Shown here one piece after another: positions 1-31,809 of a stretch of 64,000 bases of DNA (positions within the stretch are counted from its first letter, which is position 1; the number at the start of each line of letters is the position of its first letter). Made by a program: the position numbers and the translations under genes. The DNA lies in NCBI GenBank assembly GCA_002070215.1, contig MWCV01000009.1, positions 21,778 to 85,777 on the forward strand, read 5' to 3'. Source of the DNA: Chloroflexi bacterium ADurb.Bin180 (lineage in GTDB: Bacteria; Chloroflexota; Anaerolineae; UBA2200). The notes under the pieces are model-generated. The model was not told the DNA's origin, made no database searches, and saw nothing but the letters and a program-made list of their open reading frames with translations.

Positions 1-59
1 TTGCTACGTTGAGGGGGCTCGCGGGTGCGGCGAGACGAGCCTGGTGAGGATCTATGTGG

Positions 60-1193
60 CTAGTTGTGTGCCAACTCCGCCGGGCGGAGCTTTAATCCCA
101 TGCGCTCCAGCGTCTCGCGGGTGATGTGCCAGTCCAGAATCCGCCAGCGAAAGCACACCGGTCTCTCCCGCGAAGGATCGTGCGAGAGGTACTTGAGCTG
201 ACCGAGGTAGGTGTACTCGCCGGTCTTGTCCGTGCGCAGAAAGAGGTAGATGTGGTTGCGCCGCTCGTCGTGGCAGATGAACTGCTGCACCCACTTGTCT
301 TCCAGGCCCTGGCCGGGCTGAGACTCCCAGTGCAGCACCCCGTCCTCGGTCACCCACTCGCGGAACTTGTGGTCCGCCTGCTCCTGGCCAAAGGTGACAA
401 AGAAGGCAAAGTCGCCGTCGCGTTCCGGTACCTTGACGATGCCGTGGTAGCCCCAGGTGCCGGTGTAGGGTGTGAAGGGCGCCTTGGGCGCTAGGATGTC
501 GCGGACCTCGCGCCGCGTATAGTCGCGGTAGAGCGTGAGCCCGCCCCCGGCTTGCCAGAGGCCAGCCTGCTCCCGCGCAACTGCCAATTCCGGTGAAGGT
601 GGGTCTCCCGCAGCAGCCGCCCTGGCTTCGCTCTCGGCCAGCAGCGCCGCTTGCTTGCCCGCCTCGGTCAGTTGCCACACGCCGGTGGGTGAGTCGGCCG
701 CCAGCAGACCGCGCTGCACGAGTTTGAGCCTGGCCCATTGCGCCGCGTTGCGCCAGCGGACCGTCCTGGGGCTCGATGGCACGGAACCACGGTCGTGCTC
801 GGTCAGCAGAGGCCCCATGATCTGGCCTACTCGGTCCAGTACCTGCGCCACGCGCGCCGAACCGCCCAGCTCGTGCACCGCCCTTAGCACCGGCTTTTCG
901 AATGCCTCCTGAGGCGTCTTGAGCCCCGACCGCGATGCTCTGCCCAGCTTCTTCCTTCTGCTACGGCGGCGCGGCGCACTCGCGGAGGCCGGGGCCTGCT
1001 CCCACTCGTTCTTGAGGGCCAACACCTTGTCCCGAAAGGCGGCAACCTGCTTACCCTTGGCGGCGAGCTCGCTGGCAGCGCGGAAGTCCCCAGCCGACCC
1101 CGCCGCGGCCACCTTCTTGGCCAGGGCCTCGATGGCCGCCTGGATCTCCTCCAGCACCATATCAAACGCTACCGCGACCCCATTCTCCGCCAT
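60..1193 (-). CDS. DUF3427-domain protein, last gene of the defence operon
   Basis: 377-aa ORF. The C-terminal block 'TPYTGTWGYHGIVKVPERDGDFAFFVTFGQEQADHKFREWVTEDGVLHWESQ...NHIYLFLR' is typical of DUF3427, a domain normally fused to the C-terminus of PLD/helicase defence proteins. An AAGGAG Shine-Dalgarno (SD) sits 6 nt upstream of the ATG at 1193. It lies 86 bp downstream of the PLD-SNF2 gene on the same strand. Confidence 0.7.
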   Translation of the reverse strand: MAENGVAVAFDMVLEEIQAAIEALAKKVAAAGSAGDFRAASELAAKGKQVAAFRDKVLALKNEWEQAPASASAPRRRSRRKKLGRASRSGLKTPQEAFEKPVLRAVHELGGSARVAQVLDRVGQIMGPLLTEHDRGSVPSSPRTVRWRNAAQWARLKLVQRGLLAADSPTGVWQLTEAGKQAALLAESEARAAAAGDPPSPELAVAREQAGLWQAGGGLTLYRDYTRREVRDILAPKAPFTPYTGTWGYHGIVKVPERDGDFAFFVTFGQEQADHKFREWVTEDGVLHWESQPGQGLEDKWVQQFICHDERRNHIYLFLRTDKTGEYTYLGQLKYLSHDPSRERPVCFRWRILDWHITRETLERMGLKLRPAELAHN

Positions 1194-1279
1194 TGGTCAC
1201 TCCTTACGTTGGCTGACCCTCTTCCAGGGCACGGGCCACTATCGCCTCACTGCAGACCAAGCGCGGCAACTCGTCGTGC

Positions 1280-4200
1280 TCATTGCTGCCCGCGAGCGCA
1301 CTCGTTGGCAAGCGTCTCGGCGGCCGCCCATCGCGGGTCGGCGAGAGCTGCGTCCACCTCTGAGCCAGCCACTCTGGCGCGAAGCGAAGCTGCGCTGAGC
1401 GACGCCACATAGAGGTCTATATCCCTCGTCTCGTCGGCTGGCCATTCCGGGTAGTCTCCCAGCAGCCGCACCGCCTGGTGGTAGCGTCCGTTCTTTGTCC
1501 CCTCGCGCTGGACGGCCTGCCGCAGCAGCTCGGTGAGGTTCCCGTCGCTCATGCAGCGCAGAGTGCGCCCCAGCTCTCGCAGCAGCCGATTGCGGGCCGC
1601 CTCGACCTGCGCGCGCAAGCCGTCTTGCTCAGTCCTTTGCGTTGCCTCGGCCAGTGCATCCACGCGCTCCCGGGCTGCCCGCTGCGCCTCTTGGCTGGCG
1701 ATAACGACCAGGGCCGGCGATGCGCTCTGACCTGCCCAACGCGCCAGTAGCTCGCGCAGCTCAGCAGCCGACTTGACCGTCACGATGCCTCTCTCTCCCA
1801 GCCAGCGGGCCTCGGCACAGCGAAAGGCCCCATTCTGGGCCTGGGCCAGAACCAGCGGTAGCCGGCTGCCCACCGGAAGGCGACCAGCCAGGTCTTGAAT
1901 CGCTTGACTGCCGAGGGTGAGTGGCAGCAGGCTTGGGTCACGCTCCAGCGCCTCACGTTCCGTGGTCACGTCCGCTGCTCTGCGAATGCCGTGTAGATGC
2001 CACGCACCGCCCTTGCGGCGCCGAGAGGCGCGCACCGGTCCCTCGAGCTTGGCCAGCTCCTCGAGGGCCTGCTCCAGATCCGGCCTGCTGACGGGCGGAG
2101 TGGGGCGCTCCTGCCTCTTGGCCGAGGCATCGGCGTACGCCGCCATGACCATCTCGTCGGCTTGCAGTCGGCCAGCCAGGTCCTTCAGGGACGCCAGCAA
2201 CCCGTCCATCTCCGAGCTGGATAGGGGTCTCTGCAGTACCCCACGCGCCGCTGCCAGCACCGGCTGCATCGGTCCCACATAGTGCTCAAACAGGCCGCAG
2301 CGCTCGCGCAGCAATTCGTACACGCGCAGGTCAACGCTGTCGTCGAGGAACAGGTTACGGATGGGCAGCACGGGCGCCTGCTGGCCGATGCGGTCAATGC
2401 GGCCGATGCGCTGCTCCACCTTGCTCGGGTTCCAGGGAAGGTCATAGTTGATCAGCGCGCTCGCCGCCTGGAGGTTCAATCCCTCGCTCGCGGCATCGGT
2501 GCAGATCAGAATCCTGATCCGACCATCGCTGAGCCGTTCGGTCACCTCAGCGCGGCTGACCTGGTGCCATTGACCGCCCTCCAGCACCTGACCACCGCTG
2601 CCGCTGAAGCAGCCCAACGTCTGCCCATAGACCGGCCGCAGCCGGTCCCGCAGGTATTCCATCGTATCCTGGTACTCGCTGAACACCAGCACCGACCTGC
2701 CACCTGCCGCGACCTCATCCAGCAGCCTGGAGAACCGCATGAGCTTGCTGTCGGTACTGCCCAGCGCATCCAGCCGCTGCAACAGATGGTCGATTTCGTA
2801 CGCCTCCTGCTCGGCGGCCTGCGGCGTCGATGGAGCGGCCGGATCGATGCGCTCGTCCATACCGGCATCGGCCAGGTCGCGTGCGTCCATCTGCTCCCCT
2901 TCGGGTTTCAGCCAGGCCTCCCACCATTCCCGCCGCATGACCTTTTCGCACAGTTGCCGGCGTCGCTCCAAGCTGCGACGCAGGGCCAGCGGACAACTCG
3001 CGGCTCGCCGCCGGTACACCGTCATCACGAAACCTTTGCCGCCCTTTTCTCTCTCGAGCTCGTCAAAGCGGCGGTCGATGTAGCTAGTGATGGCCACGTA
3101 CGAGTCTCGCTCCGCCTGGTCCTCATAATCAAATAGTACGTCGTGTACGTCCCGCCTGGCAGGCGGCTGCGGCAGCAAGCCCATCTGATAATACCCGTGC
3201 AGGGTGCGGCGGGTGTTGCGATGCATTCGCCGGCCTAGCGGCGCGCCGTGCCGCAACCATTCAGCGATGCCCGCGCGCTGGGGGCCCATGGTGTGAAAGG
3301 CCAGGTTCTGCGCTGTCTGAGACACGCTTCTGGCCACAATCCCGCCCGGGCCAGCCGGAAAATCCCGGTCGGAAAGAATGAGCCGTGCCACCCGTTCTGC
3401 CTCTGACAGGGGTAGCGCCTTGGTGCGCAGCTTGGCCAGTGCGCCATAGTAGCCGCGTACCTCGTCGAACTCGACCATCCAACGGCCGCCGATGCCCAGG
3501 ACGGACAGCAAGTCCCAGGGCTCCCACGGCCTGGTTTGCATCGGAGTGGCGCTGAGCAGCAGGATGCCGCGCGTGCGGCGCTTGAGCTGCAAGTCCCGCA
3601 ACAGCTCGAGCAAGAGGGTCCCCGAGTTGAACTCGCCTTCTATGTCTGACCGCCGCCGTGCCGCGTGGGCCTCGTCTAGCAGGACCAGGTCCCACGGCGG
3701 TGCGCTTAGCACGGCCTCGCGGTTGCCCGAAAGGCGGGCCCACTCACGGCTCAGCAGTAGCACTGGCTCATGGGCCAGGGCCGTCGCTGGGTCGGTTGGT
3801 GCTGCTCGTCCGTCTGGCCACATCAGCTTGCCGCCGTCGCAGATGGGCACGATCAGCCCACCCTTCTCTCGTAGCTCGTCTTGCCACTGCTTGAGCAAGC
3901 CGGCTGGCACCAGCAACAGCGCCCTCTGTACGCCGCCGCCGGTCAATAGTCGCCTGAGGGCCAGAATGGCTTCGATCGTCTTGCCCATGCCCACTTCATC
4001 GCACAACATTCGGCCTGCCGGGAAGGCCGCGGCACAGTCGTCGACCACCGGTCCCTGATGCGGCCAGAGGTCGACGGGCGCCGTAGCGTCGCAGGCCAGT
4101 TGCCCGTCCGGTAGGTAGGGGGCCACCGCCAGCCAGTTCCACAGCATCGCTGCTCTGGCGCTTGGTAGGTCGAGAGTGACCTCCCCGGGGGGCTCAGTGG

Positions 4201-4906
4201 GGGCTAGCTTGACCAGCTCGAGTCGCACGGCATCGGGCAAGGGCAAGGAGGTGACGTACTCGTCGCGGTCCTGCCACAGTTCCTCGAAACGAGACCGGTA
4301 ATAATCGGTGAAGCTGCTATCGTTCCACGAAGTGCGCAGCTCCACTTCCTCATAGTTCTCGACCAGCGCCGAGCCGCTCTCGTTGTCGCTGCCCATAAAG
4401 GCCACACGCTGGCCGTATTCGTCGGTGATCACGCCGAACTTGGCATGGCTCATGCCCCCAAAACGCCGCATGACGCCTACGCGCACTTCCAGCCAGCCCT
4501 TGGCCACCAGCCACGCCAGCATGGCCAGGCGGTTCTTTTCCAGGGCCGATTGGGGGGTTTTGAACTGTGCCAGGAGGCGGCGCACCAGTGGCTCCTGGTC
4601 GCCAGTGGTCAGCAGCGCTCGCAGGTCGTCCGGGTCGAGATGCTCGTTCACTAGCAGCCGCACCGCCGGCTTGGGCGCCTGGTCGCCCAGCCGTTGCAGA
4701 TTCTCGATAAAGCCACCAAAGCCGCGCGCCGCCACGCTGAGGACGTGGCTGGAAAAGTAGCCACAACAGCGGTCATAGCTCACGGCGCAGCGGAGGGCCG
4801 GAACGTACAACTGGTTCAGCAGCTCGGGGTCGGGAGCTCGCAGCCGGTCAGGCCAAGTGTGCTGGCGCAGCCCCAGTCCCTCGCTCGCATTGCTGCCCAT
4901 GAGCAT
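1280..4906 (-). CDS. PLD(HKD) nuclease-like domain fused to an SNF2-family helicase
   Basis: 1208 aa. The N-terminal HKD motif is 'HAKFGVITDEYGQRVAFMGSDNES' (HxK(x)4D(x)6GSxN). SNF2 motifs are 'DEVGMGKT' (I), 'LLDEAH' (II), 'LLLSATP' (III) and 'QRIGRIDRIGQ' (VI). A GGGAGG SD precedes the ATG at 4906. Confidence 0.85.
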   Translation of the reverse strand: MLMGSNASEGLGLRQHTWPDRLRAPDPELLNQLYVPALRCAVSYDRCCGYFSSHVLSVAARGFGGFIENLQRLGDQAPKPAVRLLVNEHLDPDDLRALLTTGDQEPLVRRLLAQFKTPQSALEKNRLAMLAWLVAKGWLEVRVGVMRRFGGMSHAKFGVITDEYGQRVAFMGSDNESGSALVENYEEVELRTSWNDSSFTDYYRSRFEELWQDRDEYVTSLPLPDAVRLELVKLAPTEPPGEVTLDLPSARAAMLWNWLAVAPYLPDGQLACDATAPVDLWPHQGPVVDDCAAAFPAGRMLCDEVGMGKTIEAILALRRLLTGGGVQRALLLVPAGLLKQWQDELREKGGLIVPICDGGKLMWPDGRAAPTDPATALAHEPVLLLSREWARLSGNREAVLSAPPWDLVLLDEAHAARRRSDIEGEFNSGTLLLELLRDLQLKRRTRGILLLSATPMQTRPWEPWDLLSVLGIGGRWMVEFDEVRGYYGALAKLRTKALPLSEAERVARLILSDRDFPAGPGGIVARSVSQTAQNLAFHTMGPQRAGIAEWLRHGAPLGRRMHRNTRRTLHGYYQMGLLPQPPARRDVHDVLFDYEDQAERDSYVAITSYIDRRFDELEREKGGKGFVMTVYRRRAASCPLALRRSLERRRQLCEKVMRREWWEAWLKPEGEQMDARDLADAGMDERIDPAAPSTPQAAEQEAYEIDHLLQRLDALGSTDSKLMRFSRLLDEVAAGGRSVLVFSEYQDTMEYLRDRLRPVYGQTLGCFSGSGGQVLEGGQWHQVSRAEVTERLSDGRIRILICTDAASEGLNLQAASALINYDLPWNPSKVEQRIGRIDRIGQQAPVLPIRNLFLDDSVDLRVYELLRERCGLFEHYVGPMQPVLAAARGVLQRPLSSSEMDGLLASLKDLAGRLQADEMVMAAYADASAKRQERPTPPVSRPDLEQALEELAKLEGPVRASRRRKGGAWHLHGIRRAADVTTEREALERDPSLLPLTLGSQAIQDLAGRLPVGSRLPLVLAQAQNGAFRCAEARWLGERGIVTVKSAAELRELLARWAGQSASPALVVIASQEAQRAARERVDALAEATQRTEQDGLRAQVEAARNRLLRELGRTLRCMSDGNLTELLRQAVQREGTKNGRYHQAVRLLGDYPEWPADETRDIDLYVASLSAASLRARVAGSEVDAALADPRWAAAETLANECARGQQ

Positions 4907-4946
4907 CTTCCTCCCTCTCTCCTCATCGCGGCACCGCTAGTTACTG

Positions 4947-7865
4947 CTAGGCCTCGTACTCTTCCTCGTCCTCTTTGAGCAGCCGCGGCTGCGCTTGCAC
5001 TGGCGCTCTCCACTCTGGCGCCGGCAAGGAAAACAGCGGCCCCAGCAGCTCGTGCCAGGCGCGGAATTCGGGGAATTTGTCCGCCGCAGTGGTCTTGCCC
5101 CTTTTGCCGGGGAACTGCACCGCCGGCGGCGCGGCCTTGACCAGGGCATCCATCAGCCGGGCACAGGGGCTAGCGGCACCCCACCCCTGCTGGCGCGCCA
5201 TGCCGCGCGCCGCGCCAATGCCGGCCTGCCCGGCACCGGCCTCGGCGTAGCGCAAGGCCAGGGCGTGACAGGCATCGATGGCGGTATGGAAAGTCTCATC
5301 TGCGGGGTGAATGAGCCGCACGGTGCGACTGCGGCGGCCGCCCCCGACCCCGGGCAGCTCCATCTGCTCTTCCTTGCGCTTCAGTGCCTTTTCCCGGCGT
5401 CGCTCCTTGGCCGAGAGCAGGCGCACCTTGTCGCCGCTCTTTTCCACCAGCCCGGCACTCACCAGGCTGTTCACGTCCATGCCCACCGAGCGGCCGAGCA
5501 GCATGGCCTCGTTAAAGCGGAACTCTTGCGCCGCCAGCACATCCCAACACAAGAGCACAAAGCGGCTCTCGGCATCGACCCCCGTCAGGCCGCGCTCGGC
5601 GAGCTGGGCTGCGCGCCAGTCGGCCACGGCGTCGGCCGCAGCCTGTATGGCCTGGCTCACGCCCACCGGTTCGCCGGTGTCGGTCTTGACCGCGGCATAG
5701 CGGGTAAAGACCTGCATCGCTGGGCCAAAGGCGCCCACTAGCTGGTCCACTGCGGTCAACCCCTCGGCCTTGAGGCGGCTGGCGGTGCTCTGGGCGGCCT
5801 GGCGGATTTCGGCTTGCATCGCCTCGTCAAAGTAGCCACGCTCGGCCCCCGGCTCGCGCTTGCGCGCCACCAGCAGCACCGTGCTTTGGGCGGCGTTCTT
5901 GTTGGCCTGGTGCAGGCTGTGCTGGCTCTCGGTGCGCACTGGCCAGGTCGCGCTGATGGTGAAGCCGGCATCGATCAGCGACTGGAACAGGTTGGCCCAG
6001 GCGTCCTGTTGCTTGTGCGTGAACATCACCGTGAGCACGCCGTCGTCGCGGAGCACGCGATGGCACTCGCGGAAGATGTCGGTCATGAGCTGCTGGTAAA
6101 AGGCGTGCGCCTTGACCCGGGCTTCTCCCTTCTCCTGGTCGTCCTCGCGGTGGCGGCTGAGGTTGACCACCGCCTCCTGATCGTGCTCCGACAGGTAGGT
6201 GGAGAACCACTCGGGCCGGCGGTGGCCCTGGGTGCGCTTGAGCCAGACGTAGAAGAAATCGGCCAGCTCCGAGTACTGTACGTTGTCGGCATAGGGCGGA
6301 TCGACCACTACAGCGGTCACGGACTGGTCCCCCAGGTCAACCAGATGAGTGGCGCTGCCCTGGGTGACGGTGACCGGCTGTACGTGCTCGGCGCGCGGGA
6401 GCCTGGCAATATCCTCGTAGGCCTCGAGAACGTTGTCGATGGCCCAGGCCAGGCCCGCGCCCGAAACGCAGGCCGCCAGCTCCCCAAACGTCGCCTTGAA
6501 GGCATAGTCGTGTCGGTCCCACTTCCCAGCGATGACGCAGCGCCCGGCGTCCCACCTTCCCAGGATGCAGTTAAAGTTGCAGAACTTGTCAGCGATGAAT
6601 GCCAGCAGGTGCACCACCGCCTCGCCCAACTCCTGGCCCTCGGCCTCGAGGATCTCTGGCCGCAACCGACGCAGCTCCTCCACCAGCAGACCCATGGCCA
6701 GCAGTTGCCGCGGCGCGAACATATCGGCAAAGGTACGCATGCCAACGTTGAGCGGCTCCTTGGTCTTGTCGCCCAGGGGGATTTGCTCCGTGGGAACGAT
6801 GCCATCCCTCTCCCAGTCTGGCCTCAGGCGCTTGAGCTCGCGCTCGGCCGCCTGCAGCGCCTCGAAATCCCGCTTTTCCGGCGGGCGGAACTCGAGCTTG
6901 CGCGCTTTGGTGGCCACGGCATAGAGGCGATACCCCATCTGGCCCTGCTGAGCCAGGGCCTTGATCGTCTCCGACGGGATTTCCTCCTGGGTAAAGAGCG
7001 ACCAACCCCGGCCGCCGTCGTAGGTAGGCTGTGGCGCCGTGCGCAACTGTCCAGCACCCTTGCCCACCTGGCGCACGCGGATGGTCCACTCGCCCTTGGC
7101 GCGGTTGGTCACCACCGGTTCAGCCACGATGTGCGGCCCGCCCTTGACCCGCGATAGGCTCCAGTCTCCCACCAGAGGCGTGGGGTGGCCGGTGCCGGGG
7201 CAAGGCACCGTGCGCGCAAAGATGTAGGTGTAGGCGGGTATCGGCCCCTCGACGGCATAGAACTCGGACATCCGCTCCACGAACCGGTCGCGCCAAATAG
7301 CGGCCCACTTCCTCGCTGCTGTTGCTGGGTTGGACCCCAGGCGCAGCGGGTAGTCGACCGTCGCTTCCAGGATAGAGCAGGCGACCGGGCTGTACTCATT
7401 GGCCATAGCGATCAGTCCGAGTCTCGCTGCCTCCAGCGGGATTGACCCGCCACCGGCCATGGGATCGAGTGTCGTGGGCACTTGGCCCCAGGTCGCGTGC
7501 AGGGCCTGGTGCATCCGCTCTACGTCGGGCTCTCTAATGGTAGCGGAGAAGGCCCGCGGTCCATGCGGATTGGGAATGCGTTCGGTCGCGTCGCCCCTGC
7601 CCTCCAAGACCTGGCTATTTCGCGCAATGGTTGCCGAGTCCGCATAGAACCCCAGCAGCCGCTCGAAAACGTCGTGCGGAAAGTCAGCCGGTAGGAGCGA
7701 TCCCAACACCGCGGCGCGGGAGATGGTCAGCGGCCGCCGGGCCCACCACACGTGCAGGCGGTTTGGCGGCGGATGCAGGCCGGTGCTGTTCTCGCGCATA
7801 CACTCTACGCCGATGGCCTGGGCTGGCAGCCAGTCTTCAATCAGTACGCGTCGTTTTGGGTTCAT
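4947..7865 (-). CDS. DUF1156-type N6-adenine DNA methyltransferase
   Basis: 972 aa. The N-terminus 'LIEDWLPAQAIGVECMRE...LHVWWARRPL' is characteristic of DUF1156. The SAM-binding motif I is 'LDPMAGGGSIPLEA' and the catalytic motif IV is 'VVVDPPYADNV' (DPPY). A GGAGG SD is present. Its start codon overlaps the stop of the upstream small ORF (ATGA). Confidence 0.85.
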   Translation of the reverse strand: MNPKRRVLIEDWLPAQAIGVECMRENSTGLHPPPNRLHVWWARRPLTISRAAVLGSLLPADFPHDVFERLLGFYADSATIARNSQVLEGRGDATERIPNPHGPRAFSATIREPDVERMHQALHATWGQVPTTLDPMAGGGSIPLEAARLGLIAMANEYSPVACSILEATVDYPLRLGSNPATAARKWAAIWRDRFVERMSEFYAVEGPIPAYTYIFARTVPCPGTGHPTPLVGDWSLSRVKGGPHIVAEPVVTNRAKGEWTIRVRQVGKGAGQLRTAPQPTYDGGRGWSLFTQEEIPSETIKALAQQGQMGYRLYAVATKARKLEFRPPEKRDFEALQAAERELKRLRPDWERDGIVPTEQIPLGDKTKEPLNVGMRTFADMFAPRQLLAMGLLVEELRRLRPEILEAEGQELGEAVVHLLAFIADKFCNFNCILGRWDAGRCVIAGKWDRHDYAFKATFGELAACVSGAGLAWAIDNVLEAYEDIARLPRAEHVQPVTVTQGSATHLVDLGDQSVTAVVVDPPYADNVQYSELADFFYVWLKRTQGHRRPEWFSTYLSEHDQEAVVNLSRHREDDQEKGEARVKAHAFYQQLMTDIFRECHRVLRDDGVLTVMFTHKQQDAWANLFQSLIDAGFTISATWPVRTESQHSLHQANKNAAQSTVLLVARKREPGAERGYFDEAMQAEIRQAAQSTASRLKAEGLTAVDQLVGAFGPAMQVFTRYAAVKTDTGEPVGVSQAIQAAADAVADWRAAQLAERGLTGVDAESRFVLLCWDVLAAQEFRFNEAMLLGRSVGMDVNSLVSAGLVEKSGDKVRLLSAKERRREKALKRKEEQMELPGVGGGRRSRTVRLIHPADETFHTAIDACHALALRYAEAGAGQAGIGAARGMARQQGWGAASPCARLMDALVKAAPPAVQFPGKRGKTTAADKFPEFRAWHELLGPLFSLPAPEWRAPVQAQPRLLKEDEEEYEA

Positions 7866-8323
7866 CGCACTGCCTCCATCAGGATGCGGAACGCGCGCAG
7901 CGCGCGTGTGTTATCGACCTGACCCAGCAGCCCTAGCCACCAGGCTGCCTGGTCGCCCGGGGTGTGGCGGATGTGCTTGGCCGCCAGCAGCAAGCGCTCG
8001 CCATCGCGCAGGCCAGCGGCGAGCAGCCCGTAGCAGGCCACCCGTGCCCCCCAGTCGGCATCCAACGGGTGGAAGGCCCCCCGCGAAAGCACGTCCTCGC
8101 TCCTCTGGCCAGCCTCAGCTTCGTTTCGTCCGGCCAGCACGGCCTGGCGCAACATCATCGCCGCCGCCCCAAAGCACAAGGGGCTCAGCGCGGCCACACG
8201 TCGCAGTCGGTCTCGGCCGGCGTTGTTGGCCTGGCGGCGGTAGATCACCGCTGCCGTGCCACCCTTGCGGTCAACAACGCGCAGGGCAAAAGGCGCCTGC
8301 CTGGTTGGGCTAGCTGGCACCAC
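7862..8323 (-). CDS. small hypothetical protein (153 aa) coupled between the ATPase and methylase genes
   Basis: The ORF overlaps the methylase start by 4 nt (ATGA) and the ATPase gene's 3' end by 14 nt, which is a translational-coupling geometry. It may correspond to the small conserved ORF that usually sits between DUF499 and DUF1156 genes, but this was not verifiable here. In high-GC DNA a spurious ORF remains possible. Confidence 0.45.
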   Translation of the reverse strand: MVPASPTRQAPFALRVVDRKGGTAAVIYRRQANNAGRDRLRRVAALSPLCFGAAAMMLRQAVLAGRNEAEAGQRSEDVLSRGAFHPLDADWGARVACYGLLAAGLRDGERLLLAAKHIRHTPGDQAAWWLGLLGQVDNTRALRAFRILMEAVR

Positions 8324-11300
8324 TGGTCTCCTCCTCGCCGAACTCGGCCTCTACCGACACCGTGCCAGCGGCCTTGACTTTCGCGTTGCGCACCGGTTCC
8401 TCGCCCAGGGGCCTGGCCGGCGCGGCCAAGTCGAGCGCCAACGACGCGCTGAACTGCACCGTGGCGGCATTGCAGGCCCGCTGCATCTCCCTGGCTCGCT
8501 CGATGGGCTTGAGCGGAGAGCTGTGCTTGACGTCGTTGACGGCGAAAAAGAGCTGGCCTCCGCCCGACAACTCTCCCGAGACATTGACGCTCAGCCATAG
8601 GGCCCGCGCCCCAAACGGCTGCGCGATGTCGATGAGGTCGCCGGCGCGGTCCAAAGAGTTGGTCGACAGGGTCAGCCGTAGCAGCGGCCGCCGTGCCGCG
8701 TACTTGACCGCCTCGTCCCACTCCTTAGTGCTGACCGTCTTGGCCTCGCCGCTCGGATGCCAGGCGCGGTACTTGTCGTCAACCACCACCATCAACTGGC
8801 CGTCTACCTCTTGCCCGTTCAACTGGCCGGCGTCAATGGCGTCGCGCACCTTTTGCTCGCTGGTGAACTTGTCGGTGGCTGCCTGATGGATAGTGAGCAG
8901 CTCGCCTGATGGTGCGGCCGCCACCTGCTGCCAGGCCGAGGCGCAGGGCGCGCTGGACGGTGCCAGCAGTACGTCGCTGCTTAGACTGAACGCCGGACAC
9001 TGGACACCGGCCTGCAGCGAGCGCTGCTCGGGCGGTCCCGTATAGCAGCCCTGCCGGGCATAGACAGACCCGTCGGGCAACCGCAGCAAGAGCCGGCCTT
9101 CTTCAATGGCTTTGCGGATGGCCTTGCGCACCGGTTCCTCGTCGCGCATCAGGCGCAATCGAGGACTGGCCAGGGCGCGTTCGTGCACCGCGCTGGCCAG
9201 TACGGCGCCGTCGTGCTCCAGCGAAGGTGTGGCCCCCTTGACCAGCTCGTCTAGCAACAGGTCCACGTCCAAGGCATCGCCGGCCTCATAGATCAAGTGC
9301 TTGTCGTCCAGCATGTCCTTCAGTTTCGTCTGACCATCGACGTCCCTGAGCGGCCCCACATTGGAGACCAGATACTCCTCAGTCAGGGTGACCGATGGCC
9401 GGCCCTGGAAGACCACGCGGTTGAAGGCGCGCAAAGTCTGGCGGCGCGCCGTGAGCTGCAGGTCCGGCAGCAGTGCCTTGACCTCGTCGAGCAACGGGGT
9501 GGTGCGGGTCCGGCCGGTGCAGCGCTCCTGCTCCTGGCGCTGGATCTCTTGCGCCACAGTGAGCCGGCGCGTGGCCTGGGCCGCAACTTCGAACTGTGCC
9601 GGTGTAGCCGCGATGCCCAGGATCGCGTTGCGGAAGCGGCGCGGGAACCGGTTGCCCGCATCGGCCTCCTCGGTATAGTCGCATATCTCCTGGGCGAGCG
9701 CCTCGGATTCAGTCAGCACCAGCTTGAGCTGGGCACTATCGGCTACGGCGCTGGGACCGTTGGGGTAAGCCACCAGAGTAAAGACAGTACCGCGAAAGTA
9801 GTTGTGGGCCATCGTGCGCACCGCCTGCCGGGCGTCTTCGCTGCTGACAGTGCCGCTGCGCTCCTCGATGATCTTGTTGATGTTGGGCTCATAGCGGAAC
9901 TGGAAGCGAGTGCGGCCCTCATCGTGGTAGATGTGCCAGCAGTGTTGGAGCAGCCGGTCCACGGCCTCGCCTGGCTCCGAGCCGGTCTCGTTCGGGCGGA
10001 GCACAGCCAGGGTGAGGTCGGCCTTGCTCATGGTGGCCCTTTCGTTCAGCGGCAGGCTTTCGAGCAGCAGGGCGGTCGCCACACGGCGATGGACGTCCGA
10101 TCCCTGCACCTCATCGAGCTGTCGTGCGTGACGCAGCACGTCGGCATTGACGGACGGCTTGAACGAGTCGCGGTGCAGCCGGTCGAGCAGGTCGGCCTGG
10201 ATGCGGCTACTGCCCCAGTCGAGGTCGCCGGCCGAGATGAGGAACAGGTCGCGCTCTTGCTCCCACACATCGCGGACGATGCGGGCAAACAGGCGCAGCG
10301 TGCCGCGGCTCTTGTGGAAATCCTGCAGTGCGGCCAGGCGATCCTGTGCCGTCTCTAGCAGGCGGGGATGGAAGGGATAGGTGCGGGAAATGACCTTGGC
10401 ATAGTCAACGGCGGCTCCACCGGGCAGTGCCTCGGGCAGCTCAGCCTTGACCCGCTCGTAGGCACGGTAATACTCGCTGGAGGCAGTCTCCGCTGCGCCT
10501 CGCTCTATATGTTCAAAGAGGCGGCGCACAATGACTTCCGCCGCCTCCTTGCCGACGGGGTCAAAGCCGCTCGCCCTGCGACCGATGATGCCGTCCAAGT
10601 CGCTTGCTGCTGCGCTTAGCCTGGTGGCTTCGATCAGCTCGTGCGCCTGCTTGGCGTACACGGGCTGACCGGCCGGGTCCGTGAGCACCAGCACCGCCTG
10701 GCGTCGTGCCCCTACCTCGGCCATCAGCGTAGAAACGAACGAGAGCACGGCATTCTTCTCCTGTTCGTTCAAGATAGCCATATACATCACCAGCTCATCG
10801 AGGAGGATGAGCACCGGGCCGTCGGGTAGCATCTCACGCACCTTGCTGGCTGGGGGCACGTCGTCTGGCGAGTCCATCGCTTCGATCGCCCGGTACGCCG
10901 GCTCTCCGCCCAGTTGATAGGCCACCTCGCCCCACAGGCTGTGGACCTTGATAGCTCCATGCTCCGCAACCAGGGATTTGCCAAAGGCCCGCGCATCGAG
11001 CCCGGCTACGGCAACCCTACGTGGCCGGCCGGCGGCGGGCAGGAGTTGCGTTCCCAGCGTGGGCCTGGCGATGTTGTGCGCCAGGTGCCACAGCGCGATG
11101 AGGGTGTGGGTCTTGCCGCCGCCAAACCCAGTGCTCAGGCGGAGCGGAAAACCGGCCTCGTTGGGATTGGCCAGACGGTCGAAAACCGTGGTGACGACCT
11201 TCTTGAGTGTCGCGGTCGGGTAGGTGTTGGCGAAGAACCGCTCGGGATCCTGGTACACACTAGGGGCTACCCCGCCGACGACTTGGCCGAAATCGGCCGC

Positions 11301-11372
11301 AAAAATGGCGTCCTCGAGGTCGCCTCTGAGCACCTCGGGGCGTGGAACACAGGTTTCTCGTACCGACTTCAT
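8310..11372 (-). CDS. DUF499-type P-loop ATPase (BrxC/PglY-like), first gene of the defence operon
   Basis: 1020 aa. Walker A is 'LRLSTGFGGGKTHTLIALWHL' and Walker B is 'PVLILLDELVMYM'. An AAGGAGGG SD precedes the ATG at 11372. Confidence 0.8.
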   Translation of the reverse strand: MKSVRETCVPRPEVLRGDLEDAIFAADFGQVVGGVAPSVYQDPERFFANTYPTATLKKVVTTVFDRLANPNEAGFPLRLSTGFGGGKTHTLIALWHLAHNIARPTLGTQLLPAAGRPRRVAVAGLDARAFGKSLVAEHGAIKVHSLWGEVAYQLGGEPAYRAIEAMDSPDDVPPASKVREMLPDGPVLILLDELVMYMAILNEQEKNAVLSFVSTLMAEVGARRQAVLVLTDPAGQPVYAKQAHELIEATRLSAAASDLDGIIGRRASGFDPVGKEAAEVIVRRLFEHIERGAAETASSEYYRAYERVKAELPEALPGGAAVDYAKVISRTYPFHPRLLETAQDRLAALQDFHKSRGTLRLFARIVRDVWEQERDLFLISAGDLDWGSSRIQADLLDRLHRDSFKPSVNADVLRHARQLDEVQGSDVHRRVATALLLESLPLNERATMSKADLTLAVLRPNETGSEPGEAVDRLLQHCWHIYHDEGRTRFQFRYEPNINKIIEERSGTVSSEDARQAVRTMAHNYFRGTVFTLVAYPNGPSAVADSAQLKLVLTESEALAQEICDYTEEADAGNRFPRRFRNAILGIAATPAQFEVAAQATRRLTVAQEIQRQEQERCTGRTRTTPLLDEVKALLPDLQLTARRQTLRAFNRVVFQGRPSVTLTEEYLVSNVGPLRDVDGQTKLKDMLDDKHLIYEAGDALDVDLLLDELVKGATPSLEHDGAVLASAVHERALASPRLRLMRDEEPVRKAIRKAIEEGRLLLRLPDGSVYARQGCYTGPPEQRSLQAGVQCPAFSLSSDVLLAPSSAPCASAWQQVAAAPSGELLTIHQAATDKFTSEQKVRDAIDAGQLNGQEVDGQLMVVVDDKYRAWHPSGEAKTVSTKEWDEAVKYAARRPLLRLTLSTNSLDRAGDLIDIAQPFGARALWLSVNVSGELSGGGQLFFAVNDVKHSSPLKPIERAREMQRACNAATVQFSASLALDLAAPARPLGEEPVRNAKVKAAGTVSVEAEFGEEETSGAS

Positions 11373-11762
11373 CGGAGATCCCTCCTTAGCTATGCCGAAT
11401 GACGTCGCGTGGCCGGCCAGGCAAGAAGAACAGGCGCTGCTGGTCCAAGCGCTGGGCCGGGCCGGACTCTGTCCTGCCTGTCTCTGGATTCAGTTAGCTG
11501 CAATTGGGGAGCCCCGCCGAGCGCGAGGGGCAAAGCCGCCAGCATGAGGGGCACTGCGCAGGGCCGTATGGAGATGCCACAGGGGAAAGGACGCCGCATC
11601 ACACTCTCCCAGGCGATGGTTGGAATGGCGGCGAGGGCGCAACTCACCGCTGTGAGCTGGCAAGGCAGCTCACTGGGACATTATACTGTTGTTGCGGCCA
11701 GCCCGCAACAAAATAACACGGCTGACCCCTCGCGGGCCAGCCGTGTCCTCTTACTCCCTCCC

Positions 11763-11811
11763 TCGCGCTATTCCGTCGGCGGAGCGTCGGCCTCCAGCCG
11801 CTCCAGCGTCT
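11763..11811. repeat. 49-bp direct repeat, copy 1 (3' tail of the DUF3427 remnant); copy 2 is at 18863..18911
   Basis: 'tcgcgctattccgtcggcggAgcgtcGgcctccagccgctccagc' at 11763-11811 matches 18863-18911 with 2 mismatches. Both copies encode the C-terminal '...LERLEADAPPTE*' of a minus-strand ORF. Confidence 0.8.
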
Positions 11812-12105
11812 GGCGGGCGATGTGCCAGGCCCCGCTGCGCCAGCGCAAGCACAACCTGTCGGCCGACCCGTGACGGCACAGAGAGTCCCGGTGCATTACC
11901 CCACCTCGGTGATCCACTCGCGGCACTTGCGGTCGGCCCACTCCTGACCAAAGGTGACCAAAAAGGCGAAATCTCCGTCGCGCTCCGGCACCTGGACAAT
12001 CCCATGCTGACCCCACGTGCCGAGGTGAGGCCTGAAGCGACTACCAGGCGCCCGGATGTCGTGCACTTTTTGTCGGGTGTAGTCAGCGTATAGCTTCAGT
12101 TGCAC
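11768..12105 (-). pseudogene. frameshifted remnant of a second DUF3427 gene
   Basis: Two overlapping frames (69-aa and 82-aa ORFs) together encode '...YTRQKVHDIRAPGSRFRPHLGTWGQHGIVQVPERDGDFAFLVTFGQEWADRKCREWITE...WHIARQTLERLEA'. This is clearly homologous to the C-terminus of the 60..1193 protein. The upstream part of the gene is absent. Confidence 0.65.
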
Positions 12106-12138
12106 CTAGGGCTCCTCGTGCTCAAGCACCCCGCGACA

Positions 12139-13242
12139 CTATGACTCGCCGTGGGGTTTGAGTTCAGCTGCGAACTTGTCCAACTCATTGAGCATCAGCT
12201 CAAATGCGTTCACCATCGCCTCCAGATTAGCCTCGTCGACCGTAGCGCGGAGATAGTAGTTGCCGCCCTCTTTGAAGAGGCCGGTAGCGAGGATCTTCCG
12301 GCGCAGAGCGTCAGCAAAGGTCGGCTCGCGGATTGATCCAGCGAAATAGAATTCGAACCTACGCGGCGCCCAGCAGTAGGCAAACGTCGTCACGCCTGTG
12401 GGGAGGTCGGCACGCAAAGAGAGGCCCACCCGACCCCAATAGACAATGCAGCGTCCCGCTGCGGCTTGGTCGAGGGCGTGGGTAAAGAACTGCTTTGCGC
12501 CCGGGGCGCATTTGGCGAGGAACTCCTCTTGCGTGATCGGCCGAGTGGGCTGGGGTCGTCTCGCAGCCTCTGTCAGGCCGATAACACGGGGTGCTATGGC
12601 AGGGGGGTGGTCACCCTTCGCACTCTGGTACTGCTTCAGCTCGATGGCCAGCACCCGTACGTTCTCCATCTCCTCGTTCAAGAACTCCACCAAGCGGCGC
12701 AGCTCACTTGGCGTGCTATCCGTCACGAATATCAGGCGGATGCGCCGGCCCGCCAGGTTGCCTTCGACGACGCTCCAATATGCATCCTGGTCTTTATCTG
12801 CACCGAGGAGCTTGCTAACCTGGTCCTCCAGCGTTGCGCCCGCCTGCTCCGCCGTTTTCTCGGCCTGTGCCTTGATCTGGTCCACGCTCCAGTACTGAAC
12901 GCCGTTGGCCGCATAGTCGAGCATCTGCACCACGACCTCGCGACGAGTCCTTGTATCGGTTGCCCTCTTGCACTCCACAAAGGTGGGGATGCCGAACTGG
13001 TCAAGGAACAAGTGGTCGAGGCTCCACCTCCCCGCACCATCGGCGACGTCGGGGACGGGCATCTCGCGTGTGACCAGCATCCAGCGGCAGGGGTCGTCGG
13101 GTTCGATCTGGTCGCCTGGCAGCAGGTCTGGGTACTTGGCAAGCAGGTCCTGAAGCGCGTCCTCGCTCACATATTCACTCTCCTCCAGCGGAACCAGCGT
13201 TCCCTTCTCCTTGCCGATCAAGAAGATCTTGGATTTGAACAT
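12139..13242 (-). CDS. RecB-family-like PD-(D/E)xK nuclease-domain protein
   Basis: 'DHLFLDQFGIPTFVECKR...VVVQMLDYA' supplies the D...ExK...QxxxY motifs of RecB/Cas4-type nuclease cores. The preferred start is the ATG at 13242 (MFKSKIFLIG...), preceded by a GAGGGAGG SD. The ORF track extends it to 13275. Confidence 0.6.
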   Translation of the reverse strand: MFKSKIFLIGKEKGTLVPLEESEYVSEDALQDLLAKYPDLLPGDQIEPDDPCRWMLVTREMPVPDVADGAGRWSLDHLFLDQFGIPTFVECKRATDTRTRREVVVQMLDYAANGVQYWSVDQIKAQAEKTAEQAGATLEDQVSKLLGADKDQDAYWSVVEGNLAGRRIRLIFVTDSTPSELRRLVEFLNEEMENVRVLAIELKQYQSAKGDHPPAIAPRVIGLTEAARRPQPTRPITQEEFLAKCAPGAKQFFTHALDQAAAGRCIVYWGRVGLSLRADLPTGVTTFAYCWAPRRFEFYFAGSIREPTFADALRRKILATGLFKEGGNYYLRATVDEANLEAMVNAFELMLNELDKFAAELKPHGES

Positions 13243-13332
13243 CGCCCGTTCATCCTCCCTCAGCATTGTAAACATGGACGCTATCGTACGGTCGGCGGCT
13301 ACGGCACGAGAGCTAGTATGCTGTCGCCACGT

Positions 13333-31663: not shown

Positions 31664-31809
31664 GAGACCCCCTTCGCACAACGGTTGTGTTACTGCCAGA
31701 CATACTGTACTCCGTTTGTCCGTTTTTGCCAAACTGGCCATTTCGCGCATTGGGGCGATCGGGTTATAATCTCGCCCAGTCTATCGGTGAAGGGAGGTGC
31801 ATCGCGTCG

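What the first reader, a model, noticed from the sequence alone, without database searches (positions are those of the whole stretch)
60..11372. Translationally coupled operon of DUF499 ATPase, small ORF, DUF1156 N6-adenine methylase, PLD+SNF2 helicase and DUF3427: a BREX/DISARM-like methylation-based defence module
The five genes are co-directional on the minus strand. Their junctions are overlapping or very short: a 14-nt overlap, an ATGA overlap, a 40-bp gap and an 86-bp gap. The DUF499 ATPase (Walker A 'GFGGGKTHTLIAL') is the BrxC/PglY-type ATPase. The DUF1156 protein carries 'DPMAGGGSI' (motif I) and 'DPPY' (motif IV), so it is a DNA N6-adenine methyltransferase. The helicase is a canonical SNF2 (DEVGMGKT, DEAH, SATP, QRIGRIDRIGQ) fused to a single HKD phospholipase-D nuclease motif. 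This composition of ATPase, methylase and SNF2/PLD recalls BREX (BrxC + PglX) and class 1 DISARM (DrmD SNF2 + adenine methylase + DrmC PLD). It has no PglZ, DrmA or DrmB. It therefore appears to be a distinct member of the methylation-plus-helicase family of defence systems. Defence-island surveys have noted such ATPase-methylase-helicase modules, but to my knowledge they remain poorly characterised mechanistically.
Basis: partly seen in the sequence, partly recalled or inferred. Interest (0 to 1): 0.7.

Follow-up and report, generated by a model that had tools for sequence, protein, structure and literature searches.

The report
Divergent MANTIS-like methylation defence operon
This is a real anti-phage restriction-modification-like operon, a divergent relative of the recently characterised MANTIS (Gao_RL) system with a different small subunit and an extra modified-DNA reader gene, and a phage from the same habitat has copied that small subunit gene out of this locus.

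Summary
The five minus-strand genes, their junctions and every quoted motif are real. The domains are DUF499 AAA+ ATPase (A), DUF1156 N6-adenine methylase (C) and single-HKD PLD + Swi2/Snf2 helicase (D). The small ORF (B) is DUF7680, not DUF3780. The fifth gene (E) is Mrr_N wHTH + DUF3427.

The locus is neither BREX (no PglZ) nor DISARM (no DrmA/DrmB). It belongs to the DUF499-centred BREX-related systems and has the gene order and effector type of Gao_RL / BR Type-2 / MANTIS, whose mechanism was described in 2026. It is only 24–27% identical to canonical MtsA, MtsC and MtsD and falls far below the NCBIfam cutoffs. B has no significant profile similarity to MtsB.

A-B-C-D is conserved in 64 species-level genomes from at least ten phyla. 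E is present in none of them. E's domain matches the target-recognition domain of SauUSI, which MtsD-type effectors lack.

A tailed phage carries a 954-bp, circularly permuted, sequence-identical piece of this locus containing the whole B gene, and insert-free relatives of that phage exist. Solitary DUF3780 genes also occur in other phages.

Verdict: a new variant of a known kind.

The parts
8310..11372 (-). Gene A: DUF499 AAA+ ATPase (MtsA/HmaC-like), 1020 aa. Walker A at residues 82-94, Walker B at 187-195.
   Evidence: Pfam DUF499 4e-26. PADLOC HmaC 7e-74 and DUF499 model 2e-36. NCBIfam DUF499_antiphage 157 bits against a cutoff of 1200. 24% identical to canonical MtsA.
7862..8323 (-). Gene B: 153-aa DUF7680 protein in the MtsB position, translationally coupled to A (14-nt overlap) and C (ATGA overlap).
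4947..7865 (-). Gene C: DUF1156 N6-adenine DNA methyltransferase (MtsC/HmaB-like), 972 aa. Motif I DPMAGGGSI at 134-142, motif IV DPPY at 522-525, with a roughly 380-aa insert between them.
   Evidence: Pfam DUF1156 3e-18; N6_N4_Mtase 26.2 bits, just below its 26.7-bit cutoff. PADLOC HmaB 2e-81 and DUF1156_MTase 2e-46. NCBIfam 213 bits against 1000. 24% identical to MtsC.
1280..4906 (-). Gene D: N-terminal single-HKD PLD nuclease plus Swi2/Snf2 motor (MtsD-like), 1208 aa, with a roughly 320-aa unannotated C-terminal extension.
   Evidence: Pfam PLDc_2, SNF2-rel_dom and Helicase_C. PADLOC PLD_Helicase 2e-69. NCBIfam phospholipD_antiphage 340 bits against 1100. HxK...GSxN motif intact in 31/31 homologues. 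27% identical to MtsD.
60..1193 (-). Gene E: accessory reader-only protein, Mrr_N winged helix (98-182) plus a DUF3427 SauUSI-TRD-like domain (217-340). No nuclease domain.
   Evidence: Pfam Mrr_N 1e-13 and DUF3427 1.5e-11. A profile of its domain family hits only SauUSI 7CLG residues 802-923, E 6e-4. Absent from 64/64 related loci. A 70%-identical homologue lies 20 bp downstream of a different HKD+Snf2 helicase.
11715..11747 (-). Terminator-like hairpin (14-bp stem plus T-run) about 340 bp upstream of gene A; likely upstream boundary of the transcription unit.
   Evidence: It is the only terminator-like site on the minus strand in 1-12200, and none lies between D and E.
7728..8697 (-). Segment found, circularly permuted and otherwise identical, inside a tailed-phage genome. 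It holds the last codons of A, all of B and codons 1-46 of C. The microhomologies used for the internal join are at 7728-7743 and 8682-8697.
   Evidence: blastn and junction alignment. Empty-site phage relatives L091 and L092. Phage hallmark genes.
11899..12099 (-). Decayed second copy of a DUF3427 domain (67 aa, 70% identical to E residues 219-285), just downstream of the 378-aa gene 12139-13275.
   Evidence: tblastn of E against the window; DNA similarity of 74%.

Best explanation
Genes A-D form a four-component, methylation-based restriction system. It has the same architecture as MANTIS (Gao_RL / BREX-related Type-2) but comes from a divergent clade whose small subunit is DUF7680.

By analogy with MANTIS, the inferred mechanism is:
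1. The DUF499 AAA+ ATPase (A) uses ATP to load the DUF1156 methylase (C) onto a short, probably asymmetric, recognition site.
2. The small protein (B) stimulates methyl transfer, so host sites carry N6-methyladenine as the self mark.
3. Unmodified sites on incoming DNA, recognised by the A-B-C assembly, license a dimer of D.
4. D's Swi2/Snf2 motor translocates along the DNA. Its two half-HKD domains pair into one PLD active site that cuts the DNA.

Gene E is a lineage-specific add-on. It is a nuclease-less reader (Mrr_N winged helix plus a SauUSI-type DUF3427 recognition domain) and most likely directs the same or a similar HKD-Snf2 motor to modified DNA of the 5mC/5hmC type. That would give the locus a second, Type IV-like arm.

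What is shown: the domains, motifs, gene order, conservation of A-B-C-D, and the accessory status of E. What is inferred: every biochemical step, and E's partnership with D.
For: - Domains and intact catalytic motifs.
- Same gene order and translational coupling as the canonical locus L021: DUF499, DUF3780, DUF1156, PLD-helicase.
- A-B-C-D co-linear in 48/49, 29/31 and 26/28 informative loci across at least ten phyla.
- HxK...GSxN motif invariant in 31/31 D homologues.
- D's N-terminus is an HKD domain, the published hallmark of BR Type-2 helicases (PMC12839542).
- MANTIS experiments show that MtsA+MtsB+MtsC+ATP are needed for hemimethylation, all four proteins for restriction, and that MtsD is a SauUSI-like dimer lacking the TRD (bioRxiv 10.64898/2026.09.23.753747).
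- B's fold (pLDDT 90.4, four strands plus about five helices) fits the published description of DUF3780.
- E: Pfam DUF3427 1.5e-11, profile hit to the SauUSI TRD region at E 6e-4, and a homologue next to another HKD+Snf2 helicase. Lutz 2019 notes SauUSI-like systems in which the TRD is a separate adjacent protein (PMC6765204).
- No terminator-like signal between D and E.
- Defence-island setting: PDC-S68 and a PDC-S11-like gene upstream, a HepT/MNT toxin-antitoxin pair downstream.
Against: - Identity to canonical MtsA, MtsC and MtsD is only 24-27%.
- All three NCBIfam equivalog scores are far below cutoff.
- A and C score better on the PADLOC Type-1 (Hma) models than on the Type-2 models, so the locus is mosaic.
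- B is not detectably homologous to MtsB: hhalign probability 0.3%, no HMM hit, and no bridge in an exhaustive profile search. Its role as a methylation activator therefore rests on position and topology only.
- The DUF3780 model used for the topology comparison is poor (pLDDT 51).
- The MANTIS mechanism comes from a preprint, and MtsD cleavage has not been reconstituted in vitro.
- E is absent from all 64 related loci, and its only independent pairing with an HKD-Snf2 helicase is one truncated contig (L016).
- No methylation or phage data exist for this uncultured organism.
Confidence: 0.7

Rival explanations
1. The locus works like Hma / BR Type-1. The helicase-nuclease acts largely alone, with nicking or an abortive-infection-like outcome as reported for HmaA, and the ATPase and methylase are dispensable or regulatory.
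For: The best PADLOC hits for A and C are HmaC (7e-74) and HmaB (2e-81), ahead of the Type-2 models. HmaA alone protected against T4, and about 15-20% of the hmaA loci surveyed lack hmaB or hmaC (PMC11232893).
Against: D has no NOV_C/PD-(D/E)XK C-terminal nuclease and no reported TUDOR domain. It has an N-terminal HKD domain instead. A conserved, translationally coupled small gene sits between A and C, as in Type-2 and unlike the three-gene Hma system. A, B, C and D co-occur in nearly all informative loci.
Confidence: 0.1
2. Gene E is not part of the system. It is an independent neighbour in a defence island, for example a DNA-binding regulator or the reader half of a separate decayed Type IV system, and the functional unit is A-D only.
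For: E is absent from 64/64 related loci. The 86-bp gap is the largest in the cluster. A second, decayed DUF3427 copy lies on the other side of the cassette, next to a gene with a PD-(D/E)XK-like D...ECK motif. This suggests that DUF3427 genes were resident in the island independently of A-D. The closest DUF3427 relatives are stand-alone NOV_C fusions.
Against: E is on the same strand, with no terminator-like signal between D and E. It has no nuclease of its own. Its 70%-identical homologue is again 20 bp downstream of an HKD+Snf2 helicase. MtsD-type effectors are SauUSI-like but lack exactly the domain that E supplies.
Confidence: 0.4
3. It is a canonical BREX or class 1 DISARM system with its other genes nearby.
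For: Weak HMM cross-hits: PglX 5e-18, DrmD 6e-55, BrxHI/II 5e-51.
Against: No PglZ, DrmA, DrmB or DUF1998 was found among the flanking genes or the other large ORFs scanned. DrmD scores 220 bits against a cutoff of 610. The ATPase is DUF499, not the BrxC type (PMC12839542).
Confidence: 0.02

Closest known systems
MANTIS / Gao_RL / BREX-related (BR) Type-2 system (MtsA-MtsB-MtsC-MtsD)
   Same: Four genes in the same order with the same tight coupling. DUF499 AAA+ ATPase, small standalone protein, DUF1156 N6-adenine methylase with motifs I and IV split by a large insert, and an N-terminal single-HKD PLD nuclease fused to a Swi2/Snf2-type motor.
   Different: Only 24-27% identity to canonical proteins and far below the NCBIfam equivalog cutoffs. 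The small subunit is DUF7680 (153 aa) with no significant similarity to DUF3780/MtsB (195 aa). The helicase is about 300 aa longer (1208 against 905 aa). There is an extra reader gene, E. The ATPase and methylase score higher on the Type-1 (Hma) profiles.
Hma / BR Type-1 system (HmaA-HmaB-HmaC)
   Same: A DUF499 ATPase and a DUF1156 methylase, the best-scoring PADLOC profiles for A and C, plus a Snf2 helicase fused to a nuclease. Loci act as hotspots for inserted accessory defence genes.
   Different: HmaA carries a C-terminal NOV_C PD-(D/E)XK nuclease (and, per Rakesh & Krishnan, an N-terminal TUDOR domain), not an N-terminal HKD domain. Hma has no small gene between the ATPase and the methylase.
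SauUSI (Type IV, PLD nuclease - SF2 motor - DUF3427 TRD in one chain)
   Same: D plus E together contain the three SauUSI modules. E's C-terminal domain is the only thing in the PDB that its family profile matches (7CLG residues 802-923).
   Different: The modules are split over two proteins. The motor is Swi2/Snf2-type and sits inside a methylase-containing operon. E adds an Mrr_N winged helix. Modification dependence is untested.
McaZI-group DUF3427-PD-(D/E)XK proteins
   Same: The closest sequence relatives of E's DUF3427 domain (49-59% identity) are NOV_C+DUF3427 fusions. Members of that group bind 5mC/5hmC DNA and restrict T4gt.
   Different: E has no nuclease domain. Mrr_N takes its place.
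BREX (Type 3) and class 1 DISARM
   Same: A methylase, a large ATPase and a Snf2-type helicase. A PLD nuclease as in DrmC.
   Different: No PglZ, BrxA, BrxB or BrxF, and no DrmA or DrmB. The nuclease is fused to the helicase.

Membership tests
MANTIS / Gao_RL / BR Type-2 | DUF499 AAA+ ATPase (MtsA) with intact Walker A and B | tested here: met
   Pfam DUF499 4e-26; motifs at residues 82-94 and 187-195.
MANTIS / Gao_RL / BR Type-2 | Standalone DUF3780 protein (MtsB) encoded inside the locus (98% of Type-2 loci) | tested here: not met
   B is Pfam DUF7680. hhalign of DUF7680 against DUF3780 gives probability 0.3%, E 0.18. The DUF3780 HMM does not hit B. No bridge in the exhaustive profile search.
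MANTIS / Gao_RL / BR Type-2 | A small gene between the ATPase and the methylase, translationally coupled, with an alpha+beta fold of a four-stranded sheet plus about five helices | tested here: met
   14-nt and 4-nt overlaps. Same position as in L021. AF2 pLDDT 90.4 with elements E-E-E-H-H-E-H-H-H-H. Fold description in PMC12839542. The DUF3780 model used for direct comparison was poor.
MANTIS / Gao_RL / BR Type-2 | DUF1156 N6-adenine methylase with motif I and DPPY | tested here: met
   Pfam DUF1156 (N6_N4_Mtase hit is just below its cutoff); DPMAGGGSI and DPPY.
MANTIS / Gao_RL / BR Type-2 | Helicase with an N-terminal HKD endonuclease in place of TUDOR, plus a Swi2/Snf2 motor | tested here: met
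   PLDc_2 at 95-211, SNF2 at 297-472, Helicase_C at 727-841. PADLOC PLD_Helicase 2e-69. HKD motif conserved in 31/31 homologues.
MANTIS / Gao_RL / BR Type-2 | Scores above the NCBIfam equivalog cutoffs NF042962, NF042963 and NF042964 | tested here: not met
   157/1200, 213/1000 and 340/1100 bits.
MANTIS / Gao_RL / BR Type-2 | ATP- and MtsB-dependent hemimethylation of asymmetric 6-bp sites; restriction needs all four proteins | not testable with these tools
   Needs methylome sequencing and phage assays.
Hma / BR Type-1 | Snf2 helicase with a C-terminal NOV_C PD-(D/E)XK nuclease | tested here: not met
   No PF13020 hit. The nuclease is an N-terminal PLDc_2 domain. HmaA is only the sixth-best PADLOC hit.
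Hma / BR Type-1 | HmaB- and HmaC-type methylase and ATPase | tested here: met
   PADLOC HmaB 2e-81 and HmaC 7e-74.
BREX | PglZ alkaline-phosphatase-family protein in the locus | tested here: not met
   No PglZ hit in the five operon genes, the two upstream neighbours, or nine further large window ORFs. The genes called downstream of E in L002 carry no PglZ family either. Smaller window ORFs and the ORFs beyond about 50 kb were not scanned.
DISARM class 1 | DrmA helicase and DrmB (DUF1998) core genes | tested here: not met
   Neither was found as a gene among the ORFs scanned. D scores below the DrmD cutoff (220 against 610 bits).
SauUSI-like Type IV enzymes (considered for D+E) | PLD nuclease, SF2 motor and DUF3427 target-recognition domain | tested here: inconclusive
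   All three modules are present, but split between D and E. Physical coupling and modification dependence are untested.

The most novel reading that the evidence does not exclude
Phages counter MANTIS-type systems by carrying a solitary copy of the system's small co-regulator.

Evidence for this locus:
- A tailed phage from the same anaerobic-digester communities has gained a 954-bp, circularly permuted piece of this locus. It is sequence-identical apart from the junction microhomologies.
- The piece contains the complete B gene, co-oriented with the phage's early genes, and an in-frame fusion of the methylase N-terminus to an ATPase C-terminal fragment.
- Close phage relatives have the exact empty site.
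- Independently, intact solitary DUF3780 (MtsB-family) genes sit in at least two other genuine phage genomes with no MtsA, MtsC or MtsD nearby.

The proposal is that phage-supplied small subunit either pushes the system towards methylating phage DNA (as lambda Ral does for EcoKI; from my own knowledge) or poisons A-B-C assembly. A second novel element is that E turns the MtsD-like motor into a dual-mode effector, acting on unmodified sites through A-B-C and on modified DNA through E.
Probability: 0.35. Interest if true: 0.8.

Novelty: new variant of a known kind. Interest (0 to 1): 0.6.

Why it matters
MANTIS-type systems are widespread, and their small subunit is the least understood component: the MANTIS authors call its role unclear and note that unknown anti-MANTIS mechanisms must exist.

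- **A natural contrast for the small subunit.** This locus defines a sister clade, found in at least 64 species-level genomes from at least ten phyla and mostly uncultured. A different small-protein family occupies the same slot. That helps define what the small subunit must do.
- **A candidate counter-defence.** A phage has copied exactly this gene, with a demonstrable empty-site ancestor, and orphan DUF3780 genes occur in other phages. Together these give a concrete, testable candidate for an anti-MANTIS strategy.
- **Tractable homologues exist.** Cultured-strain relatives on Rhodococcus pyridinivorans SB3094 and Roseomonas mucosa AD1 plasmids make experiments feasible.

Tried and rejected
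- **Canonical BREX or DISARM:** rejected. No PglZ, DrmA or DrmB among the ORFs scanned.
- **DUF3780 for the small ORF:** rejected by Pfam, hhalign, HMM search and the exhaustive profile search.
- **PHROGs for B and E:** no hits.
- **AF2 model of DUF3780:** too poor for a firm fold comparison (pLDDT 51).
- **Rakesh & Krishnan supplements:** the text held does not contain this locus's accessions or 'DUF7680'. I could not tell whether the clade was in their Type-1 or Type-2 sets.
- **Assembly chimera as the explanation for the phage insert:** rejected. The joins are 13-16-nt microhomologies, far shorter than the assembly k-mer. The same structure occurs in JGI (IMG/VR) and ENA assemblies. The predicted empty site exists. 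Contig L006, which runs from the phage into the host methylase beyond the insert, is probably an assembly path switch through the 840-bp shared repeat, but a longer-insert variant is not excluded.
- **L105 (89%-identical E homologue):** this is the same strain with a 41-codon in-frame deletion, so it is not independent evidence for D-E linkage.
- **tRNA genes as island borders:** none in the window.
- **Not run:** the PADLOC and DefenseFinder system-level rules. Only the PADLOC HMMs could be used.

Full report
**1. Observation**

The five minus-strand ORFs are at the stated coordinates, with the stated junctions: a 14-nt overlap, an ATGA overlap, and gaps of 40 bp and 86 bp. All quoted motifs are present.

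Pfam gives the following:
- A: DUF499.
- B: DUF7680 (2.4e-6, above the gathering score). This is not DUF3780.
- C: DUF1156, plus an N6_N4_Mtase hit just below its gathering score (26.2 against 26.7 bits).
- D: PLDc_2 + SNF2-rel_dom + Helicase_C.
- E: Mrr_N (98-182) plus the C-terminal half of DUF3427 (217-340).

The window is the reverse complement of GCA_022707605.1 contig JAKJAH010000010.1. Identical proteins are deposited for 'Chloroflexi bacterium ADurb.Bin180'.

A strong terminator-like hairpin lies about 340 bp upstream of A. There is none on the minus strand inside the cluster.

**2. What family it belongs to**

PADLOC HMMs give these best hits:
- A: HmaC 7e-74, DUF499 model 2e-36.
- C: HmaB 2e-81, DUF1156_MTase 2e-46.
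- D: PLD_Helicase 2e-69, then PbeA, DrmD, BrxH and HmaA.

NCBIfam has an 'anti-phage-associated' DUF499 / DUF1156 / phospholipase-D trio. The window proteins hit it at 157/1200, 213/1000 and 340/1100 bits, far below the equivalog cutoffs.

No PglZ, DrmA or DrmB was found among the ORFs scanned or the flanking genes.

The literature resolves the identity:
[quoted passage not shown] Type-1 is Hma, with a C-terminal PD-(D/E)XK nuclease on the helicase. Type-2 has an N-terminal HKD nuclease on the helicase plus a standalone DUF3780 gene in 98% of loci. Type-3 has PglZ and iSTAND.
- Shaw et al. (bioRxiv 2026-09-24, 10.64898/2026.09.23.753747) rename Gao_RL / BR Type-2 as MANTIS and give a mechanism:
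  - MtsA (AAA+) loads MtsC.
  - MtsB stimulates hemimethylation of asymmetric 6-bp sites.
  - All four proteins and both ATPases are needed for restriction, which favours inverted unmodified sites.
  - MtsD is a dimeric PLD + SF2 motor, structurally like SauUSI but without its target-recognition domain.

A canonical locus, Acinetobacter baumannii pJBA13_1 (L021), has the same order and coupling as the window.

**3. How this locus differs**

- Identity to canonical MtsA, MtsC and MtsD is 24%, 24% and 27%. B has no hit to MtsB.
- Profile-profile comparison of DUF7680 (46 sequences) with DUF3780 is not significant: hhalign probability 0.3%, E 0.18. The forced alignment is co-linear and pairs similar motifs (LDxxWGxxxC...PdEAAWWL against LDxxLGxxLC...PEErWWL).
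- B's AF2 model is confident (pLDDT 90.4). It has a four-stranded sheet plus about five to six helices, which matches the published description of DUF3780. It has no solved or viral structural homologue.
- The DUF3780 model I could build was poor (pLDDT 51), but it shows the same order of secondary-structure elements.
- An exhaustive HMMER profile search found only 100 clusters at 50% identity and no bridge to DUF3780.
- No paper in the library mentions DUF7680.

I therefore treat B as the positional and probably functional equivalent of MtsB. Homology is unproven.

**4. Conservation**

- A DUF7680 profile scan of species-representative genomes found 64 loci. They come from Chloroflexota, Armatimonadota, Planctomycetota, Acidobacteriota, Verrucomicrobiota, Gemmatimonadota, Aminicenantes, Proteobacteria, Synergistaceae and others, and nearly all are MAGs.
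- A is upstream in 48/49 informative loci, C downstream in 29/31 and D in 26/28, always co-linear.
- The HxK...GSxN motif is intact in 31/31 D homologues.
- Cultured relatives exist on plasmids. Rhodococcus pyridinivorans SB3094 has a small protein that hits DUF7680 at 5e-28. Roseomonas mucosa AD1 has B 46%, C 56% and D 47% identical, with its ATPase truncated by an IS element.
- In 21/48 loci the B-C junction holds inserted accessory genes: NYN, Schlafen AlbA_2, DUF3800, M78 peptidase, AAA_21, SIR2 and a C5 methylase.

**5. Gene E**

- E is absent from all 64 related loci. Only three protein clusters share its architecture.
- The closest relatives of its DUF3427 domain are NOV_C+DUF3427 fusions of the McaZI type. 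Members of that group bind 5mC/5hmC DNA and restrict T4gt (PMC6765204).
- A profile of the domain family hits only SauUSI (7CLG residues 802-923, E 6e-4) in the PDB.
- A 70%-identical E homologue lies 20 bp downstream of a different, only distantly related helicase whose best PADLOC match is the 'HKD+Snf2' model C3a139 (1e-55). That contig is cut before the helicase's N-terminus.
- Lutz et al. note SauUSI-like systems in which the specificity domain is a separate adjacent protein.
- MtsD-type effectors are SauUSI-like but lack the TRD.

From this I infer that E is a trans-acting reader for an HKD-Snf2 motor. It is an inference and carries the lowest confidence in the model.

A decayed DUF3427 fragment, 70% identical to E residues 219-285, lies on the other side of the cassette. 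This argues that DUF3427 genes may be resident in the island independently of A-D.

**6. Phage capture of gene B (outside the window, but bearing on B)**

- The exact B protein is also encoded on phage-like contigs.
- L001 9757-10596 equals window 8567..7728 at 100% identity. It is followed directly by window 8697..8552.
- All three mismatches lie in the junction microhomologies.
- The insert is a circular permutation of a 954-bp host segment. It is joined internally at a 13-16-nt microhomology (window 7728-7743 and 8682-8697). In the phage it is flanked by an imperfect 16-nt repeat.
- It contains the last 86 codons of A, all of B, and an in-frame 115-aa fusion of MTase residues 1-46 to ATPase residues from about 892 onward.
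- Its GC content is host-like, 0.67 within a phage of about 0.60.
- The same structure is present in IMG/VR contigs from JGI assemblies.
- The element is a tailed phage: major head protein 4e-26, Neck1 1e-18, tape measure 2e-41, and Snf2 and primase genes.
- The predicted empty site occurs exactly in a related viral contig and in a metagenome contig. These are collinear on both sides (97.7-100% and 86.9% identity) and have no similarity to the window.

The capture is therefore real, recent, and a gain in one phage lineage.

Whether it was selected is not shown. Because the insert is identical in sequence to the host, the intactness of B is not in itself evidence of selection.

There is a parallel in the canonical clade. 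Of 12 viral-catalogue loci with DUF3780, nine carry whole MtsABCD systems. Three carry an intact solitary DUF3780 gene (151-167 aa, ending at about model position 160 of 184). Two of those are in clear phage contexts, one near a terminase (7e-104) and one beside a RecE-like exonuclease and a virion protein.

**7. Verdict**

The locus is a methylation-based defence module that is neither BREX nor DISARM, but it belongs to a family that is now named and mechanistically described.
- It is a new variant of that kind. It has a DUF7680 small subunit, a longer helicase, mosaic affinity to the Type-1 and Type-2 profiles, and an accessory reader gene.
- The most interesting lead is the phage-borne copy of the small subunit.

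Noticed in passing
window 7728-8697 (-); L001 9757-10726; L011-L013; L089; empty sites at L091 5101-5134 and L092 3071-3104: A tailed phage from anaerobic-digester metagenomes carries a 954-bp circularly permuted piece of this locus, sequence-identical apart from the junction microhomologies. It holds the whole B gene plus an MTase-N::ATPase-C fusion ORF, inserted at a 16-nt microhomology. Close phage relatives have the exact empty site.
   Followed up: yes
L097 6992-7447; L103 6989-7468; L104 5185-5688: Intact solitary DUF3780 (MtsB-family) genes of 151-167 aa, lacking the C-terminal tail of the 195-aa cellular proteins, sit on viral contigs with no MtsA, MtsC or MtsD within 7 kb. Two are next to clear phage genes (terminase; RecE-like exonuclease and a virion protein).
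   Followed up: partly
Related loci L031-L082, between the B and C homologues: In 21 of 48 loci the B-C junction holds 0.8-3.8 kb of inserted genes: NYN (6 loci), Schlafen AlbA_2+HATPase_c_4 (4 loci), DUF3800, XRE-HTH, M78 peptidase, AAA_21, a C5 methylase, SIR2_2 and GMT-wHTH. It is a hotspot for accessory defence genes. In the window the junction is a 4-nt overlap.
   Followed up: partly
window 11899-12099 (-) and 12139-13275 (-): A decayed DUF3427 fragment (67 aa, 70% identical to E residues 219-285) lies just downstream of a 378-aa gene with a D...ECK (PD-(D/E)XK-like) motif and a weak PADLOC PDC-S11 hit. It may be the remnant of a Type IV-like pair flanking the cassette.
   Followed up: partly
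window 13965-17750 (-): A 1261-aa RecD-like SF1 helicase matches the PADLOC candidate defence family PDC-S68 end to end (E = 0). The operon therefore sits in a defence island. GC content drops to about 0.61-0.64 over 12-18 kb.
   Followed up: no
window 18869-31750 (-): A giant 4293-aa ORF made of SdrD_B, DUF11, GEVED, CarboxypepD_reg and CBM96 repeats, probably a surface adhesin. A 1754-aa antisense ORF on the plus strand is probably a high-GC artefact.
   Followed up: no
window 33682-39696 (+) and 39693-40967 (+): A 2004-aa protein whose only annotation is an AAA_22 domain (1321-1461), overlapping the start of a 424-aa ORF with no family. Neither hits PADLOC. The region has low GC (about 0.61). 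It may be an uncharacterised NTPase-based system.
   Followed up: no
L019 (Roseomonas mucosa AD1 plasmid NZ_CP025194.1) and L020 (Rhodococcus pyridinivorans SB3094 plasmid NC_023144.1): DUF7680-type four-gene systems occur on plasmids of cultured strains. In Roseomonas the ATPase is truncated next to an IS6 element and an MBL-fold hydrolase gene sits between the methylase and the helicase. The Rhodococcus locus is intact.
   Followed up: partly
L046 (Planctomycetota MAG, 5.97-Mb scaffold): Homologues of A and B are present, but no C or D homologue was detected within 10 kb downstream. It may be a variant with replaced partner genes.
   Followed up: no
L105 (ENA ERZ2624663), matching window 1-4039: A strain variant of the same organism has a 41-codon in-frame deletion in gene E (window 573-693, the linker between Mrr_N and DUF3427). 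The contig has low coverage.
   Followed up: partly
L002 18312-20462 (beyond window position 1): Downstream of E lie an AAA_25/DnaB_C-like gene on the opposite strand and an MNT/HepT (NTP_transf_2 / HepT-like) toxin-antitoxin pair. This again indicates an island context.
   Followed up: no
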